Made by a program: the position numbers and the translations under genes. This document shows, piece by piece, positions 4,723-14,191 of a DNA stretch of 14,191 nucleotides. Location: IMG/VR virus record IMGVR_UViG_2529292908_000005; one strand, written 5' to 3'. The first letter of the stretch is position 1. Every line of letters begins with the position of its first letter. This DNA is from a virus (taxonomy: Duplodnaviria > Heunggongvirae > Uroviricota > Caudoviricetes). The notes beneath the pieces were generated by a model, which was not told where the DNA came from, did no database searches, and saw nothing but the letters and a program-made list of their open reading frames with translations.

Positions 4723-5795
4723 GTGATTTCTCCTACCGTCAGCAGCTCACTGTCTCCCGCCTGAACTGACGTCAGCGGACTGCGCACTTCAAAATCCTCC
4801 AGATTTTTCACCCCTGCCACCGCCCGCCAGAAAGACGACGGCAGAACCAGACCGCCGGGCCGGGATTCGTTATACAACAGGTCGGTCAGCGCCTGTTTTA
4901 CGGCCGCCTGATTCTCCGGTGTTTTCGGGATGATCCTGATGCTGAAGGGCACCGGCTTATTGGTCAGTTTAAACACGGTCACCGTCGGCCCCAGAGGCTG
5001 TCCGACAGGCTGGCCGGTCGCCGGATCATCATGACTGCGGATATAATCCGCCACCCGCTGAACATCACCGTCACCGGGGAAAATATCCGGGTTATTATCC
5101 TGAACAAACGTTACCCCCACGCTGCCCGCCTGCGGCCATTCCGGGCGGCACCATGCCCGCGTCACGCCCGGCACTTCACGCGCCCAGCGTTCAAAATCAT
5201 ACTGCGTGCCGCCGGACGGTGGATTCTGCACCCGGAAAACCAGACGGGAAAGCAGCTCCGGCACGGTTTCCACATCCGCACCACCGGTGATCCCCGTTCC
5301 GGTCACCGTGGACGTCTGGTTGATCCCCGCCTGCGGTGTGATAAATGTCAGTTTTGTCCCTGCCGGGGCATTCCCCGCACGACCGGCACTTTCGGCTTCC
5401 ACACTGACATTCAGCGTACCGGCCTTACCGGTCAGGGAGGTGGTGATACGGTAAACCACGCCATCACTTCGCTGGAGAAGCACACCTTCCTTGATCCCCG
5501 CATCCGTGGTCAGCATCAGCTGAACCGGCCCGTCCCCCCGAGAGGCAGGCTTACGCATGACGCCCCAGAATGCACAGTGTTTCAGCAGTTCGGCTTCATC
5601 GGCTTCGGTCGGGATGATCTGACGCGCAATCCAGGCCAGATGCTCATGCTCCTGAGCAGATAACCCTGCCTGAGCGTAAGCAATGGCATTCAGGGTGGTT
5701 TCATTCACACCCGGCTGCGAGCCGGGCAGGCGCTGGCTGATATCCTGCTGTGTCTGCGTGATTAACTGTGCCAGCGGTAAAGGCTGATAAGGCAT
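4713..5795 (-). CDS. Baseplate J-like protein (Mu gp47 / P2 gpJ family)
   Basis: ORF-track frame 4713..5837 starts at TTG; a better start is ATG 5793-5795 (MPYQPLPLAQ...) with a GGG-containing SD. Translation shows the J-family layout (...ADEAELLKH.AFWGV.RK.A..A.G...GGADVE...) recalled from P2 J. Confidence 0.85.
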   Translation of the reverse strand: MPYQPLPLAQLITQTQQDISQRLPGSQPGVNETTLNAIAYAQAGLSAQEHEHLAWIARQIIPTEADEAELLKHCAFWGVMRKPASRGDGPVQLMLTTDAGIKEGVLLQRSDGVVYRITTSLTGKAGTLNVSVEAESAGRAGNAPAGTKLTFITPQAGINQTSTVTGTGITGGADVETVPELLSRLVFRVQNPPSGGTQYDFERWAREVPGVTRAWCRPEWPQAGSVGVTFVQDNNPDIFPGDGDVQRVADYIRSHDDPATGQPVGQPLGPTVTVFKLTNKPVPFSIRIIPKTPENQAAVKQALTDLLYNESRPGGLVLPSSFWRAVAGVKNLEDFEVRSPLTSVQAGDSELLTVGEITWL

Positions 5796-10340: not shown

Positions 10341-11273
10341 TCACACCTGTGAGAGTAATTCAGGGTTGGTATAAACCTCTTTAAAGGCCGCATTAATATG
10401 TTTTTCTGTCAGCGCCGCGCCTTCACCGCTGGCGGTGAGCCACGCCTGGTTAAGCGTATGTGTCAGAACGCGTAACGCTCCCGGCTTTTCAGCGATAGCC
10501 TGCATGACGGCCAGCTCGGCCTCACCACTGATACCCCATGCCCTGGCAATGGCCAGCACATCCGCCTTTTTGGCCTTGCGAAGTTGTTTTGTACGGGCAA
10601 GACGGCTGAACAGGCGCGATAAATCATCAAAGGCGCGGCGTCCACCTTTAAACAATCCGCGCGGGTTACCAATAAGCACCATCCCGATCCCCGTGGCGTC
10701 CTGAATTGCCCGGAGTTGCTCCAGACCGTCAATACCAAGATGATCCGCCTCATCCACAATCACCAGTCCACGCGTTCCCGTCAGGCGACGGCGGATGGCG
10801 CGGGATAATGCCCCTTTGTTCGCGCGGGTGTAATCAATCCCCAGCGCATCGGCCAGCTCCAGCAGACACTCCGTGACGCTGGAGTGCGCGGGTGACAGGG
10901 TGATCATCCAGGTGTTTGGTTGCTCCTGGCAGTAATTACGGGCAGTGGCCGTTTTACCCACACCCGGTACGCCCACAATAACGTTAATACAGCCCATCAG
11001 GCGAACCGCCTGAAACAGTGCGCGCAGCTCCTGGACTGTCTGAGTTTCCACAAACTGCGGCGGTTCCGGCAGTGCGCTTTGTTTATTCCAGTTCTCATAC
11101 CAGGAGCGCAGGGAAGCAGCCACAGCGGCGTTATCGCCTTTATATTTCCCCTTGCGGAAAGCCGATAATGTGCCGTCGGAAATTCCCGCCTCTCTGGCGA
11201 TGGCATACTGCGTCAGCACGCCGCCATCAATAAGTTCATCAATGGTCTTGATTACATCGTTTATATCGGTCAT
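10341..11273 (-). CDS. B: MuB-like transposition target-capture protein (AAA+ ATPase)
   Basis: 310-aa ORF with Walker A VGVPGVGKTATARNY, ...LVIVDEADHLG..., N-terminal HTH-like region, and co-linearity with Mu B as recalled (...GDN..V...L..W...PEPP.FVETQTV...KPGALR.L...); GAGG SD; directly downstream of the transposase. Confidence 0.92.
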   Translation of the reverse strand: MTDINDVIKTIDELIDGGVLTQYAIAREAGISDGTLSAFRKGKYKGDNAAVAASLRSWYENWNKQSALPEPPQFVETQTVQELRALFQAVRLMGCINVIVGVPGVGKTATARNYCQEQPNTWMITLSPAHSSVTECLLELADALGIDYTRANKGALSRAIRRRLTGTRGLVIVDEADHLGIDGLEQLRAIQDATGIGMVLIGNPRGLFKGGRRAFDDLSRLFSRLARTKQLRKAKKADVLAIARAWGISGEAELAVMQAIAEKPGALRVLTHTLNQAWLTASGEGAALTEKHINAAFKEVYTNPELLSQV

Positions 11274-11312: not shown

Positions 11313-11348
11313 AATAACCTGAGTCGCCGCTCGGGTTATTTTTTATTT
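11313..11348 (+). terminator. Stem-loop plus T-tract in the A-B intergenic region; reads as an intrinsic terminator on the strand antisense to A/B
   Basis: AATAACCTGAG-TCGCCG-CTCGGGTTATT (11-bp stem with one G-U pair on the plus-strand RNA) followed by TTTTATTT; on the sense (minus) strand the stem has a C-A mismatch and a weaker U-tract. Confidence 0.35.
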
Positions 11349-13438
11349 CAGGCCAGAGGGTCATTTTCTTTTAATTTCGCTTCAAGCAGCTGCAATCCCC
11401 GCTGGAAATTACGCTCGTATTCTTCATCAGGTTCATCGTCAGCGACCGGTTGCTGAACGATCACCGTATTACCCACAGGGCGGTATATATTTTCCAGCCA
11501 CGGCTCCTGTGGCTTGTGCTCCAGCACGTTGACAATCTCATCCTCGGCATCACGGATTTTTTCCTCTGCGCGTTTACGCATGCCTTTAAGGCGCTGCTGC
11601 TGTTTGTGGTATTCCGCGCTGACCGGGAAGGCTTCGCGTTTATTGCCGTCCCATACCGCCTCGCAAATCACGCTGCCATCCGGGCGACGTACGGTAATTC
11701 GTTCGGCATCATGAATGTCATAGCTGATAAGCACCTTACGACCATGCTCGTCACGCAGCTCGGGCGCGTAGTAAATATTATTCAGCCAGCGTATTTCACA
11801 GCGTCTTACAGGGCGTTCCACCATCGGCCGGAACATATCCCGCAGCTCAACATCGGACAGCCATTCAATTTCCGTGTCCTCTTCCGCCAGGCGTTTTTTT
11901 CTGAACTCCGCCGGGCTGTAATGCTTGCCGTTCGGCTTCACCGGTAATTCATCGTGCGGCCGGTTGTTGTACCACTCAACACCATCACGAATGGCATCAA
12001 TCAGTTCAGCCCAGGACGGTAAATCACGCATCGCTGACTGCTGCCGGGCGTTCAGCCGTTTGCCCTGTTGCAGGGCAGTAAATGCCGAGCGTAAATCGCG
12101 GTTGGTTTTGCGTAACGTCTCGCGATCTGCACCTTTCCCGAAATAGGTGCGGTATTTACGGGCTATGCGCATCGGTAATGTGCGGTTAAGCCGTTCGATA
12201 ATGCCTCGTCCCTGCGGATTACCGGCAATCCCGGTCGGGTGATTAATCCCCAGTCGCGGCAGTATCCCCACAACCTCCTTATCCAGGATGTCGGCGGTTT
12301 CCCCGGAGCCGTTATCCGAGTAATACAGAAACGGTTTGCCGTGATGGCGAATGCCGTGCTGTATGGCACCGGCTACGGCGAAAACATTTTCAGCCAGGTC
12401 AAGGCTCCAGCCCACCACAAAGCGCGTGCCACCGTCGATAACAAAGGTCACTTCCGGTGCAAATGGCCGACCGTGAACCGGGTGTGCGCATTTCAGCTTC
12501 ATGCCGTGACCGTCACCAATCCAGACATAATTCACCGGCATTTTTGACCAGTCGCGGCGCGTGAATCCCTCAAGCTGGCGGTATTCACTGCCGGTCACCC
12601 GGCCTTTTTGTTTCACCACTTCCGGCAGTTTCTTCATTGCGCGGCGAATGGTGTCATAAGACGGCATGATATCGAGCATATAAGGCTCATCAGCGTGCCG
12701 GTGCTGCCATTCAGCAACAAAATCCTCGTAAGCCTCGGTCATTGGTCGGCCGTTTGACTGGCGATACTGCGCCAGAAATTCGGGCAGCCAGTTAATATCT
12801 TCGGCTTTTATTTCCTGGCGCTTACCCGGTGCCAGTAAAAGCAGGCGTTCAGCGGCGTTCTGCGCCTTGTTAAAGGCCGCAATCCAGCGTTTCAGCGTGA
12901 TTTCACTTAACGCGCGGCTGTTTCCCTTTTTGGCGTTCGCCGTCTCAACCATTGCCACAATGCGCTCGTCCAGCTGCGAACGTGCCAGGTTGTCAACGAT
13001 AAACCGGATAGCCTTCGCACAGCTGAAACCAGGTTGTTGCGCGACTTTCAGCACCTCGCTGACGATCGCGATTCGTGCATCAGCCACCTGGCGCTGGTTT
13101 TCAGTCAGGGCATTAAGGCGTTCAACCATCAGTTGTGGTGATCCGCGATATGCCTCCACCGCATCAACCACGGCAGGCGAGCGTCTGGCCTTTGTCACCA
13201 CTGGAGCCGGTGATTCATCGACTTTTTGAGTCATCAGTTGCAGGGCGTAGCGTTCACGTAATGCCTGCTGCGTCACTTCAGGTAAACAGTCGATGCTGTA
13301 TTCAGTTGCTTTAGAGCCTGAGCGACGACGGGAACAACAGCTTTTCCCTTGTACGTAACGTTGTAATGCCTGGCGAATACCTTTTGTTGTAGCAGGCATT
13401 CCGGGCGCGCCAATCAGTTCTTTTGCAATGACATACAT
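11348..13438 (-). CDS. A: Mu-type DDE transposase (MuA-like)
   Basis: 696-aa ORF of MuA size, immediately between ner-like and B-like genes; start 1 nt after the ner stop (TGATATG); internal ...YVWIGDGHGMKLKC... core region. Assignment rests mainly on size and conserved ner-A-B synteny. Confidence 0.9.
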   Translation of the reverse strand: MYVIAKELIGAPGMPATTKGIRQALQRYVQGKSCCSRRRSGSKATEYSIDCLPEVTQQALRERYALQLMTQKVDESPAPVVTKARRSPAVVDAVEAYRGSPQLMVERLNALTENQRQVADARIAIVSEVLKVAQQPGFSCAKAIRFIVDNLARSQLDERIVAMVETANAKKGNSRALSEITLKRWIAAFNKAQNAAERLLLLAPGKRQEIKAEDINWLPEFLAQYRQSNGRPMTEAYEDFVAEWQHRHADEPYMLDIMPSYDTIRRAMKKLPEVVKQKGRVTGSEYRQLEGFTRRDWSKMPVNYVWIGDGHGMKLKCAHPVHGRPFAPEVTFVIDGGTRFVVGWSLDLAENVFAVAGAIQHGIRHHGKPFLYYSDNGSGETADILDKEVVGILPRLGINHPTGIAGNPQGRGIIERLNRTLPMRIARKYRTYFGKGADRETLRKTNRDLRSAFTALQQGKRLNARQQSAMRDLPSWAELIDAIRDGVEWYNNRPHDELPVKPNGKHYSPAEFRKKRLAEEDTEIEWLSDVELRDMFRPMVERPVRRCEIRWLNNIYYAPELRDEHGRKVLISYDIHDAERITVRRPDGSVICEAVWDGNKREAFPVSAEYHKQQQRLKGMRKRAEEKIRDAEDEIVNVLEHKPQEPWLENIYRPVGNTVIVQQPVADDEPDEEYERNFQRGLQLLEAKLKENDPLA

Positions 13439-13439
13439 A

Positions 13440-13688
13440 TCATGACGCCTTTCTCATATAGCTCTTAACCTGGTATCGACTGGGCCAGATTTCTTCAGGC
13501 GATACCCCAAGAGCATCAGCAATTATTTGCTGATACGGTCGGCAAGGAGTACGTAATACGCTTTTCAGCGAATCCCTGCTGTAACCAGCCTTTAAAGATA
13601 AAGAGCGCAGTGATAAGCCAGCCATGTGTAAGCGCGCCTTGATGATTTCAGGCGGCCAATCGTGATCTGAAACTTCTCTTCTACTCAT
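13440..13688 (-). CDS. ner: Ner-like DNA-binding regulator (Ner/Nlp family)
   Basis: 82-aa ORF ...DWPPEIIKARL...GLSLRSLSLKAGYSRDSL...QQIIADALGVSPEEIWPSRY..., co-linear with Mu Ner / E. coli Nlp as recalled; first gene of the early operon, divergent from the repressor. Confidence 0.88.
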   Translation of the reverse strand: MSRREVSDHDWPPEIIKARLHMAGLSLRSLSLKAGYSRDSLKSVLRTPCRPYQQIIADALGVSPEEIWPSRYQVKSYMRKAS

Positions 13689-13855
13689 ACTTCCTCTATT
13701 CTAAAAAGTTACCCGCGCGGATATTCGTGCGGATATCTGTACGGGTAAATAATAGAACAAGCAAAAGAACCAAATCAAGGTATTTTGTTCTTTTTATTCT
13801 TTGCGGTGTTTTTGTTATTAATATCAATAAGATAAATAAAAAGGAACCTGAGAGC
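13689..13855. promoter_or_regulatory. Divergent early promoter/operator region between ner and the repressor gene
   Basis: 167-bp AT-rich intergenic region. Direct repeats GCGGATAT at 13717-13724 and 13729-13736 nested in inverted arms TTACCCG (13709-13715) / CGGGTAA (13742-13748). Candidate leftward promoter: -35 TTGATT (13773-13778) and -10 TATTAT (13749-13754), 18-bp spacer. AAGGAA SD for the repressor at 13841-13846. Confidence 0.5.
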
Positions 13856-14191
13856 ATGAACATGAAAAACAGTTCTTTTCTCGACGAAGGAAAAGAACCA
13901 GTGATCGAACGGATTTTTCGTCTTGCAGAGCGTTACAAATCGAGAAGTGAGGCGGCTAGAGCATGGGGAATAAACGTTCAGACATTGCAGAACTACTACA
14001 AAAGGAGAAACAATCAGCCGCCACCACAACCAAGAAAGCACCATCTCCAGAACATTGCAGAAAGAGAACATGTATCTATGGAGTGGCTGGTCAATGGTTA
14101 TGGTGATGAGCCAAGCATGAAAAAAGAACCAATTGAACAAACAAAAAGAACAAAAAACAAAGAATTGATGATAGTGATTCCATCATCATGA
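13856..14191 (+). CDS. Prophage repressor, CI-type HTH (Phage_CI_repr-like); ends at the window edge
   Basis: ORF-track frame 13727..14191; preferred start ATG 13856 (MNMKNSS...) with AAGGAA SD 9 nt upstream; HTH segment ...SRSEAARAWGINVQTLQNYYK... and the ...VSMEWLVNGYG motif typical of CI-type repressor N-domains; divergent from ner-A-B. Confidence 0.7.
   Translation: MNMKNSSFLDEGKEPVIERIFRLAERYKSRSEAARAWGINVQTLQNYYKRRNNQPPPQPRKHHLQNIAEREHVSMEWLVNGYGDEPSMKKEPIEQTKRTKNKELMIVIPSS

What the first reader, a model, noticed from the sequence alone, without database searches (positions are those of the whole stretch)
13689..13855. Operator-like repeat array at the divergent repressor/ner promoter region
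GCGGATAT occurs twice as a direct repeat 12 bp apart, nested within 7-bp inverted arms (TTACCCG…CGGGTAA), just downstream of a candidate leftward promoter. The geometry fits a repressor or Ner binding site controlling the lysogeny/transposition decision. The repressor is CI-type rather than Mu c-type, so this immunity region may be mosaic.
Basis: seen in the sequence. Interest (0 to 1): 0.35.

Follow-up and report, generated by a model that had tools for sequence, protein, structure and literature searches.

The report
Probable Ner operator of Mu-like prophage
The repeat is real and belongs to a conserved 42-bp, four-box DNA site at the start of the early (ner-transposase) transcript of an E. 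coli Mu-like prophage; it is most likely where the Ner protein binds to throttle its own promoter, so it is an expected kind of phage control element and not the immunity repressor's operator.

Summary
GCGGATAT sits at 13717-24 and 13729-36, inside TTACCCG (13709-15) and CGGGTAA (13742-48), directly after the only sigma-70-like promoter in the region (-35 13778-73, -10 13754-49, minus strand).

In this window alone the repeat is not statistically remarkable. Comparison with 58 related loci (23 distinct arrays) shows what it is: part of a 42-bp array (13708-13749) of four conserved 7-bp boxes, about 12 bp apart, with free-running spacers. In the most distant pairs the boxes are 25/28 identical, the spacers 1/14, and ner synonymous sites are saturated.

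The array tracks ner (Mantel rho 0.74), not the repressor (0.19). It survives at least four natural immunity swaps. It occupies the position of the Mu Ner site, at and just downstream of the Pe start.

The repressor's operator is most likely the neighbouring palindrome around the Pe -35 (13751-13802). Its half-site changes with the repressor's recognition helix.

The repressor is indeed not Mu c-type. "CI-type" rests only on sub-threshold hits. The region is mosaic only within this lineage.

Verdict: a probable Ner operator, a new member of a known kind. Binding is inferred, not shown. Interest is modest.

The parts
13708..13749 (-). The 42-bp four-box array, the probable Ner operator. Read in ner orientation it is TTTACCC-gtaca-GATATCC-gcacg-AATATCC-gcgc-GGGTAAC.
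   Evidence: Present in all 58 family loci, with 23 distinct versions. A PWM built from other lineages scores it at 48 bits, unique in the window. It covaries with Ner. The boxes are under purifying selection.
13743..13749 (-). Box 1 (TTTACCC; family consensus TTTAYCC). It abuts and overlaps the last base of the Pe -10.
   Evidence: Information profile, columns 1-7. The -10 ends at array position 0 or 1 in all 37 variants.
13731..13737 (-). Box 2 (GATATCC; family consensus GATAnCC).
   Evidence: Columns 13-19 are conserved.
13719..13725 (-). Box 3 (AATATCC; family consensus GTTATCC).
   Evidence: Columns 25-31 are conserved.
13708..13714 (-). Box 4 (GGGTAAC), an inverted copy of the box. Family consensus GGnTAAC.
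   Evidence: Columns 36-42 are conserved. Column 5 of box 1 and column 38 of box 4 change together (UA 10, CG 6, UG 4).
13749..13778 (-). Early promoter Pe (predicted): -35 TTGATT 13778-13773, -10 TATTAT 13754-13749. The transcription start is predicted near 13742.
   Evidence: Only promoter-like hit in 13400-14191. A -35/17-18 nt/-10 match at the same place relative to the array occurs in 37 of 37 distinct family variants.
13751..13802 (.). Probable immunity-repressor operator. It is an imperfect palindrome centred on the Pe -35, with inner half-sites AAAAGAAC (13763-70) and GTTCTTTT (13787-94) and outer GAAC/GTTC-like boxes.
   Evidence: Inverted repeats I1 and I8. The half-site changes with the repressor's helix..TLQNYYKR.. 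goes with AAAAGAAC and ..TLNSYFK.. with AAAATACC. Operator distance tracks repressor distance (rho 0.45, p<=5e-4).
13689..13707 (-). Conserved leader CTTTTTAGAATAGAGGAAGT between the array and the ner ATG. It includes the ribosome-binding site.
   Evidence: Nearly invariant across the family (TAACTTTTTAGGATAG). Mu has TAACTTTATAGATTA at the equivalent place.
13440..13688 (-). ner gene (82 aa).
   Evidence: PF13693, 2.5e-19. 43% identical to Mu Ner. PDB 1NEQ/1NER at 9e-9 and EnrR 7F9H at 2e-8.
13856..14191 (+). Repressor gene, truncated here to 111 aa by a 1-nt deletion in the A-run at 14152-14157. It is 194 aa in other E. coli.
   Evidence: PHROG 3037, 2e-59.
13824..13837 (+). Immunity-independent motif TCAATAAGATAAAT (family TCAATWRGATA). 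It is a candidate repressor-promoter start region; its function is unresolved.
   Evidence: It lies a fixed 73-74 nt from the array edge in most immunity types, while its distance to the repressor ATG varies from 14 to 56 nt.

Best explanation
The repeat is part of the operator of the prophage's Ner protein. The element is a 42-bp array (13708-13749) of four 7-bp boxes with consensus (G/T)TTAYCC. The boxes are about 12 bp apart and alternate, or are ambiguous, in orientation. They can be read as two 18-bp palindromes 24 bp apart or as one 40-bp dyad.

The array begins at the last base of the -10 of the early promoter Pe and runs to about +35 of the ner-A-B transcript.

Proposed mechanism: once Pe fires, Ner accumulates. 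Several Ner molecules bind the boxes through their helix-turn-helix, in neighbouring major grooves. They block open-complex formation or promoter escape, and so limit their own synthesis and that of the transposition proteins. This is what Ner does in phage Mu.

The lysogenic repressor acts separately, at the palindrome that straddles the Pe -35 and -10 (13751-13802).

Shown here: the sequence anatomy, its conservation, selection on the boxes, and linkage to ner rather than to the repressor or the MuA N-terminus. Inferred: that Ner is the binding protein, the stoichiometry, and the effect on transcription. Whether Ner also shuts off the repressor promoter here is unknown.
For: 1. Position. The array directly follows the only promoter-like site. 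A -35/-10 pair sits at the same place relative to the array in 37 of 37 distinct variants.
2. Parallel with Mu. In Mu, two exact inverted 12-mers of the Ner consensus lie at 1029-1040 and 1047-1058, just after the annotated Pe start at 1028 and before ner at 1099. The location is the same.
3. The gene next door is a Ner homologue.
4. Footprint-like conservation. Columns 1-7, 13-19, 25-31 and 36-42 are conserved and the spacers are variable.
5. Selection on the boxes.
- L056 versus L008: ner synonymous third positions are 36% identical, the boxes 25/28 and the spacers 1/14.
- L008 versus L042: third positions are 39% identical, the upstream 70 nt 36%, and the array 42/42.
6. Linkage. Array distance correlates with Ner distance (rho 0.74, Mantel p<=5e-4). 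It correlates less with the MuA N-terminus (0.57) and barely with the repressor (0.19, p=0.053).
7. Immunity swaps. Identical arrays occur with repressors only about 50% identical: window versus Mu_JNE082796, L005 versus L006, L033 versus L034, and L008 versus L009.
8. Recognition helix. The predicted recognition helix S(K/R)DSLKSVLRTPC is the same in most of the family, matching the constant boxes; the exceptions seen are L016, L056/L079 (which also lack the Cys), L014 and a K->T change in L003/L054. It differs from the Mu and EnrR helices, which matches the different motif.
9. Precedent. A solved Ner homologue (EnrR, 7F9I) is monomeric in solution and binds a palindrome as two molecules through the HTH (PMC9023278).
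Against: - No binding or transcription data exist for this lineage. Ner is assigned by position, linkage and analogy.
- The array is physically adjacent to ner, so part of the correlation with Ner could be simple linkage. The selection test and the weaker MuA correlation argue against this but do not eliminate it.
- The binding register and stoichiometry are ambiguous, because the boxes are pseudo-palindromic.
- The sequence does not match the Mu Ner consensus.
- No repressor promoter could be placed, so the second half of Ner's role in Mu, repression of Pc, cannot be mapped onto this array.
Confidence: 0.75

Rival explanations
1. The array is an RNA element: a 5' stem-loop in the leader of the early ner-A-B transcript that affects mRNA stability or translation. 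The dyad symmetry would then reflect base pairing rather than protein binding.
For: The region is a 19-nt-arm inverted repeat. The RNA folds better than shuffles (z -2.7 to -3.0). On 23 arrays the nested pairing i<->43-i shows more double changes than column shuffles: 22 cells against 10.7 +/- 3.0, with 0 of 500 shuffles reaching it. Pair 5-38 is UA 10, CG 6, UG 4, and pair 17-26 is AU 15, UA 4.
Against: - Only 80% of cells pair, and columns 9-12 with 31-34 are mostly unpaired (for example 18 of 23 unpaired at pair 12-31).
- Box 1 lies at about -7 to -1 of the conserved promoter. It would not be transcribed, yet it is among the best-conserved parts.
- Conserved boxes with free spacers are a protein-site pattern.
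- The tool warns that related sequences can beat the shuffles without any structure.
- Symmetric changes are equally expected for a symmetric protein complex.
Confidence: 0.07
2. The array is an operator of the immunity repressor, as the first reader also allowed.
For: It lies in the repressor/ner intergenic region, next to Pe, and is dyad-symmetric.
Against: At least four independent pairs of loci share the same array but have repressors about 50% identical and different operator palindromes. Array-to-repressor correlation is only 0.19 (p=0.053). A different element, the palindrome around the -35, does covary with the repressor's recognition helix.
Confidence: 0.03
3. The array is bound by another protein: the transposase MuA N-terminal domain (a transposition enhancer like the Mu internal activation sequence) or a host factor such as DnaA, since TTATCC is the start of a DnaA box.
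For: - MuA here keeps the Mu DNA-binding domain PF02316.
- The repressor lacks that domain, so an enhancer, if there is one, need not coincide with the repressor operators.
- Array-to-MuA N-terminus correlation is 0.57.
- Box 1 plus the next three bases is 8/9 to TTATCCACA in a few lineages (listing).
Against: - L008 versus L042/L043: the array is 42/42 identical while the MuA N-terminal 90 aa are only about 51% identical and Ner is 85-89% identical.
- The three bases after TTATCC, which are essential in a DnaA box, are variable at every box.
- In most loci the boxes are spaced about 12 bp apart, which is not DnaA-box or Mu operator geometry.
Confidence: 0.08
4. It is a chance repeat without function.
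For: Within the single window the 8-mer repeat at offset 12 is not significant (1 observed, 0.30 expected). Box-like hexamers are common in the coding DNA.
Against: The array is conserved at the same place in 58 loci from Enterobacterales and a Pseudomonas phage. The boxes are held constant while synonymous sites and spacers are saturated.
Confidence: 0.01

Closest known systems
Ner operator of phage Mu (and of D108)
   Same: It belongs to a Ner-family HTH protein encoded immediately downstream. It lies at and just after the start of the early promoter Pe and before the ner ribosome-binding site. In Mu the two inverted 12-mers are at 1029-1058 with the Pe start at 1028. It is built of short dyad-related repeats about one helical turn apart. 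The expected role is negative autoregulation of early transcription. The downstream leader TAACTTT(T/A)TAG is also shared with Mu.
   Different: The sequence motif is unrelated: (G/T)TTAYCC boxes rather than ANYTARCTAAGT, which has no match in the intergenic region. There are four boxes over 42 bp instead of two 12-mers over 30 bp. Ner is only 43% identical, with a different recognition helix. The D108 site is recalled from memory only and was not checked here. Binding is not demonstrated for this lineage.
EnrR of Edwardsiella piscicida (Ner homologue; PDB 7F9H/7F9I)
   Same: Same fold family (E = 2e-8). It is a monomer in solution that binds palindromic DNA as two closely packed molecules through HTH contacts in the major groove (PMC9023278). 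This gives a structural precedent for several Ner molecules on a dyad-symmetric array.
   Different: EnrR is a chromosomal, nucleoid-associated global regulator of AT-rich DNA with consensus AATAAATNATTTATT. Its base-contacting Arg47 and Arg55 align with Asp39 and Thr47 in the window's Ner. The site here has GC-containing boxes and is a single dedicated operator.
Mu operators O1-O3 / lambda-type immunity operators
   Same: Same genomic neighbourhood, the divergent repressor/early-gene control region, and dyad symmetry.
   Different: The array does not follow the repressor allele. In this lineage the element that behaves like an immunity operator is the adjacent palindrome at 13751-13802. The repressor lacks the Mu c / MuA domain PF02316, so the Mu arrangement in which operators double as the transposition enhancer is not implied.

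Membership tests
Ner operator (Mu-type early-promoter operator) | Lies between the -10/start of the early promoter and the ner start codon | tested here: met
   The array at 13708-13749 starts at the last base of the -10 (13749), and the ner ATG is at 13688. The same holds in 37 of 37 family variants. The Mu equivalent is at 1029-1058, between the start at 1028 and ner at 1099.
Ner operator (Mu-type early-promoter operator) | The adjacent gene encodes a Ner-family HTH protein | tested here: met
   PF13693, 2.5e-19. 43% identical to Mu Ner. PDB 1NEQ at 9e-9.
Ner operator (Mu-type early-promoter operator) | Short repeated, dyad-related half-sites about one helical turn apart | tested here: met
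   Four conserved 7-bp boxes about 12 bp apart. An 18-bp site matrix hits three registers 12 bp apart on both strands.
Ner operator (Mu-type early-promoter operator) | Co-inherited and co-varying with ner rather than with the repressor | tested here: met
   Mantel rho is 0.74 with Ner and 0.19 with the repressor. Immunity swaps leave the array intact. The boxes are conserved where synonymous sites are saturated.
Ner operator (Mu-type early-promoter operator) | Matches the Mu Ner recognition sequence ANYTARCTAAGT | tested here: not met
   No match with up to 2 mismatches in 13689-13855, against two exact matches in Mu. This is expected if specificity diverged along with the recognition helix.
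Ner operator (Mu-type early-promoter operator) | Bound by Ner, with Ner-dependent repression of Pe (and of Pc) | not testable with these tools
   This needs EMSA or footprinting and reporter assays.
Immunity-repressor operator | The sequence changes with the repressor's DNA-binding specificity | tested here: not met
   The same array occurs with repressors about 50% identical. The neighbouring palindrome, not the array, covaries with the repressor helix.
Mu transposition enhancer (internal activation sequence) | Recognised by the MuA N-terminal domain and therefore tracking that domain | tested here: inconclusive
   The array is identical where the MuA N-terminal 90 aa are about 51% identical (L008 versus L042), which argues against it. 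Binding itself cannot be tested here.
DnaA box | The 9-mer TTWTNCACA, with conserved CACA | tested here: not met
   The columns following each TTAYCC box are variable (columns 8-11, 20-22 and 32-34).
Structured 5' leader RNA | Base pairs maintained by compensatory changes within the transcript | tested here: inconclusive
   There are some symmetric double changes. However, the middle of the stem is unpaired, the local hairpins show no covariation, and box 1 lies upstream of the predicted start.
   It is absent from the 194-aa repressor and present in Mu c at 5e-54. BLASTP gives E = 0.19.
CI-type repressor (PF07022 HTH, or lambda CI with an S24 peptidase domain) | A significant match to a CI HTH model or to a peptidase domain | tested here: not met
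   PF07022 scores 12.8 bits against a cut-off of 22 (E = 0.16), and there is no S24 domain. DicA and RstR models score far below their cut-offs. The protein belongs to PHROG 3037.

The most novel reading that the evidence does not exclude
In this lineage the immunity repressor no longer shares a DNA-binding domain with the transposase, yet MuA keeps that domain. The conserved four-box array could therefore serve two roles. It could be the Ner operator and also the transposition enhancer, or an anchoring site for a higher-order Ner/MuA complex at the left end. That would couple early-transcription shut-off directly to transpososome assembly. A related reading is that Ner reaches the repressor promoter through the extra box-like heptamer near 13830.
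Probability: 0.06. Interest if true: 0.55.

Novelty: new member of a known kind. Interest (0 to 1): 0.3.

Why it matters
It gives a precise, testable map of the lysis/lysogeny control region of the Mu-like prophage carried by many pathogenic E. coli (190 of 5426 complete genomes, including O157). The map comprises the early promoter, a repressor operator that changes with the immunity type, and a separate, immunity-independent four-box site that most likely binds Ner.

It shows that immunity cassettes are swapped at a junction right next to the array. That explains how hetero-immune variants of the same transposable phage arise.

It also defines a new recognition motif, (G/T)TTAYCC, for a branch of the Ner/SfsB/EnrR family. 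Few binding sites are known for that family.

It does not reveal a new kind of mechanism.

Tried and rejected
- Metagenome scan with the conserved leader TAACTTTTTAGRATAG. It returned 120 stretches, and none had the array with a ner-like gene downstream.
- Literature on the Mu and D108 Ner sites. The original papers are not held. The Mu consensus was therefore taken from memory and verified on the Mu sequence. The D108 site remains unverified.
- Repressor promoter. No consensus sigma-70 match is positionally conserved between the operator and the repressor ATG. I found only a conserved TCAATWRGATA motif at a fixed distance from the array. A Ner-box-like heptamer there occurs in only 7-8 of 25 types. 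This is left unresolved.
- Small ORFs across the region. The 55-aa ORF at 13696-13863 on the minus strand is open in only 6 of 37 variants. The GTG 13727 extension of the repressor frame has no support either: although one frame on that strand stays open through this segment in 23 of 37 variants, the intergenic lengths differ by non-multiples of 3. Coding is rejected.
- DnaA box and Fur-box resemblance. The DnaA-box reading was rejected because the bases after TTATCC are variable; the Fur-box reading was rejected on the spacing of the boxes, by comparison with the Fur consensus recalled from memory.
- Local 18-bp hairpins show no covariation.
- The GTTCTTTTC/GAAAAGAAC inverted repeat inside the repressor gene (13872-13898) looked like a second repressor operator. 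Its right arm encodes the conserved GKEP and is present in other immunity types too, so it is probably a coding coincidence.

Full report
**Context**

The window is the left end of a Mu-like prophage. On the minus strand it carries:
- B (10341-11273; Phage-MuB_C, 2.5e-25);
- the transposase A (11348-13438; Mu-transpos_C, 2.2e-17, and the Mu DNA-binding domain PF02316, 6.9e-6);
- ner (13440-13688; PF13693, 2.5e-19).

On the plus strand a repressor gene starts at 13856. Nearly identical DNA occurs in 190 of 5426 complete E. coli genomes, many of them O157:H7, always on the chromosome. It also occurs as a Mu-like phage inserted into two Stx phages. The finding's coordinates, 13689-13855, are the whole ner-repressor intergenic region.

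Yes. GCGGATAT is at 13717-24 and 13729-36. TTACCCG is at 13709-15 and CGGGTAA at 13742-48. The inverted repeat extends to 19-nt arms at 79% complementarity. The only sigma-70-like site in 13400-14191 is on the minus strand: -35 TTGATT at 13778-73 and -10 TATTAT at 13754-49. The repeat therefore begins at the last base of the -10.

Taken alone the repeat is not statistically striking:
- An 8-mer repeated at offset 12 occurs once, against 0.30 expected.
- Box-like hexamers are twice as common in this coding DNA as in shuffles.
- Another cluster of four lies at 5083-5111, inside a gene.

The case rests on comparison with related loci.

**Comparative anatomy**

Searches with the Ner protein and with the conserved leader gave the following:
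- 58 loci, from Escherichia, Kluyvera, Mixta, Izhakiella, Erwinia, Pantoea, Leminorella, Symbiopectobacterium, a Klebsiella plasmid, viral contigs and Pseudomonas phage VW-6B;
- 37 distinct combinations of upstream region and Ner;
- 23 distinct arrays.

All have the same layout in ner orientation:
1. a variable palindrome around a -35;
2. a -10;
3. a 42-bp GC-containing array;
4. a nearly invariant leader, CTTTTTAGGATAG;
5. the ner ATG.

The information profile of the array shows four conserved blocks:
- columns 1-7, TTTAYCC;
- columns 13-19, GATAnCC;
- columns 25-31, GTTATCC;
- columns 36-42, GGnTAAC.

These blocks are separated by variable spacers. In window coordinates the boxes are 13743-49, 13731-37, 13719-25 and 13708-14.

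They look like a perfect direct repeat only in this E. coli lineage, where both inner boxes read ATATCC. In most other lineages the inner boxes read GATAACC and GTTATCC.

A weight matrix built without the window's own lineage scores 13708-13749 at 48 bits. It finds nothing else in the 14 kb. An 18-bp sub-site matrix hits three registers 12 bp apart on both strands. The array can therefore be read in three ways:
- as four half-sites about 12 bp apart;
- as two 18-bp palindromes 24 bp apart;
- as one 40-bp dyad.

The register cannot be settled from sequence.

**Selection**

| Pair | ner synonymous third positions identical | Upstream 70 nt identical | Boxes | Spacers | Whole array |
|---|---|---|---|---|---|
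| L056 vs L008 | 36% | 27% | 25/28 | 1/14 | 26/42 |
| L008 vs L042 | 39% | 36% | 28/28 | 14/14 | 42/42 |

This is the signature of a protein-binding site.

**Whose site?**

Across 28 loci I compared distances between arrays with distances between the neighbouring proteins.

| Comparison | Mantel rho | p |
|---|---|---|
| Array vs Ner | 0.74 | <=5e-4 |
| Array vs first 90 aa of MuA | 0.57 | <=5e-4 |
| Array vs repressor N-terminus | 0.19 | 0.053 |

Four natural immunity swaps keep the array, and Ner, essentially unchanged while the repressor is only about 50% identical and the palindrome around the -35 differs:
- window type versus Mu_JNE082796 type;
- L005 versus L006;
- L033 versus L034;
- L008 versus L009.

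In the window-versus-JNE alignment the identity breaks down immediately after the array, near 13750-13755.

Conversely, L008 and L042/L043 share an identical array with 85-89% identical Ner, but their MuA N-termini are only about 51% identical.

The palindrome around the -35 does follow the repressor:
- repressors with ..TLQNYYKR.. have AAAAGAAC/GTTCTTTT half-sites (13763-70 and 13787-94 in the window);
- those with ..TLNSYFK.. have AAAATACC/GGTATTTT;
- other helix variants have other half-sites.

Operator distance correlates with repressor distance (rho 0.45, p<=5e-4). The repressor operator is therefore most likely 13751-13802, overlapping the -35 and -10 of Pe. The array belongs to something encoded on the ner side.

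**Comparison with Mu**

In the Mu genome the annotated Pe start is 1028 and ner starts at 1099. The Ner recognition sequence as I recall it, ANYTARCTAAGT, matches exactly twice. The two inverted 12-mers are at 1029-1040 and 1047-1058, against 0.12 matches expected.

The array here has the same location relative to promoter and gene. It has an unrelated motif, with no match in the intergenic region.

This fits the proteins. The window's Ner is 43% identical to Mu Ner. Its predicted recognition helix, S(K/R)DSLKSVLRTPC, is the same in most of the family. It differs from the helices of Mu and of EnrR.

EnrR is a solved Ner homologue. It is a monomer in solution, and two molecules bind a palindrome through the HTH in the major groove. 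Its base-specific contacts come from Arg47 and Arg55 (PMC9023278). These residues align with Asp39 and Thr47 in the window's Ner, consistent with a different specificity.

**Mechanism proposed**

Pe is conserved in position in 37 of 37 variants. It starts near 13742, so the array spans about -7 to +35.
- In the lysogen, the repressor occupies the palindrome over the -35 and -10.
- After induction or infection, Pe fires and Ner accumulates. Ner fills the four boxes and blocks open-complex formation or promoter escape. This limits ner-A-B expression, which is Ner's role in Mu.

These steps are inferred. The anatomy, conservation and linkage are shown.

I could not locate a repressor promoter. 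Only a conserved, immunity-independent motif, TCAATWRGATA, lies a fixed 73-74 nt from the array (13824-13837 in the window). A Ner-box-like heptamer there is present in only 7-8 of 25 types. Whether Ner also represses repressor synthesis here stays open.

**Rivals**

- **RNA hairpin.** The nested pairing shows more symmetric double changes than column shuffles (22 cells against 10.7 +/- 3.0), and the RNA folds at z -2.7 to -3.0. Against this, the middle of the stem is mostly unpaired and the local hairpins do not covary. Box 1 lies upstream of the predicted start. The box/spacer pattern is protein-like. A symmetric protein complex would give the same symmetric changes.
- **Repressor site.** Contradicted by the immunity swaps.
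- **MuA enhancer or DnaA boxes.** Argued against by the L008/L042 comparison and by the variable bases after TTATCC.
- **Coding.** The small ORFs across the region are not conserved.

- The repressor is not Mu c-type. It has no PF02316 domain, whereas Mu c scores 5e-54, and BLASTP gives E = 0.19.
- 'CI-type' has only sub-threshold support: PF07022 at 12.8 bits against 22, with weak DicA and RstR hits. The firm assignment is PHROG 3037.
- Every relative whose repressor gene could be read intact carries this repressor family. The lineage as a whole differs from Mu, and the mosaicism lies between immunity alleles within the lineage.

**Novelty**

I found no paper in the held library describing this control region. 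Papers on the O157 Mu-like prophage Sp18 treat it only as an intact Mu-like prophage (PMC2669165). The element is a new member of a known kind, a Ner operator with a new motif and four boxes rather than two. It is useful, but not surprising.

Noticed in passing
window 14152-14157 (repressor gene 13856-14191): The A-run is A6 here and A7 in the O157 copy aligned directly (L001); all 20 listed E. coli matches likewise span 793 nt against the 792-nt query. The frameshift cuts the repressor from 194 aa to 111 aa, and the new stop codon is the last three bases of the window. It is either a homopolymer sequencing error or a real truncation that removes the C-terminal half of the repressor.
   Followed up: partly
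window 13751-13802: An imperfect palindrome is centred on the Pe -35. Its half-sites change with the repressor's predicted recognition helix across the family (QNYY with AAAAGAAC, NSYF with AAAATACC). It is the probable immunity operator.
   Followed up: partly
window 13824-13837: The motif TCAATAAGATAAAT (family TCAATWRGATA) is conserved regardless of immunity type. It lies a fixed 73-74 nt from the array, while its distance to the repressor ATG varies from 14 to 56 nt. It may mark the repressor promoter or start region. A Ner-box-like heptamer overlaps it in only some lineages.
   Followed up: partly
window 11348-13438 (MuA) versus the repressor: MuA keeps the Mu DNA-binding domain PF02316 at its N-terminus, but the repressor of this lineage lacks it. 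The Mu arrangement, in which repressor operators double as the transposition enhancer through a shared domain, may therefore not hold here. The enhancer, if any, is unlocated.
   Followed up: no
window 13750-13755; L002, L005/L006, L033/L034, L008/L009: There is a recombination junction between immunity cassettes directly at the array edge. The same ner-A module is found with two or more repressor/operator modules in several genera.
   Followed up: yes
L003 (Pseudomonas phage VW-6B, MF975721, left end): A phage isolated on Pseudomonas fluorescens carries the same repressor-array-ner module, 69% identical in DNA to the E. coli prophage. The control region therefore crosses bacterial orders.
   Followed up: partly
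window 5083-5111: This is a second cluster of four box-like hexamers ([AT]TA[ACT]CC), inside coding DNA. The full-array and 18-bp matrices do not score it, so it is a chance cluster. The hexamer class is about twofold enriched throughout the coding DNA, with a strand bias of 54 to 26.
   Followed up: yes
window 13696-13863 (-) and 13727-14191 (+): A mechanical 55-aa ORF lies across the intergenic region, and a GTG-started extension of the repressor frame reaches into it. Neither is supported in relatives: the minus-strand frame is open in only 6 of 37 variants, and the extension crosses variable DNA whose length differs by non-multiples of 3 between relatives, although one frame on that strand stays open through this segment in 23 of 37.
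   Followed up: yes
window 13872-13898: The inverted repeat GTTCTTTTC-N9-GAAAAGAAC at the 5' end of the repressor gene resembles the operator half-site. Its right arm encodes the conserved GKEP and also occurs in other immunity types, so it is probably a coding coincidence.
   Followed up: partly
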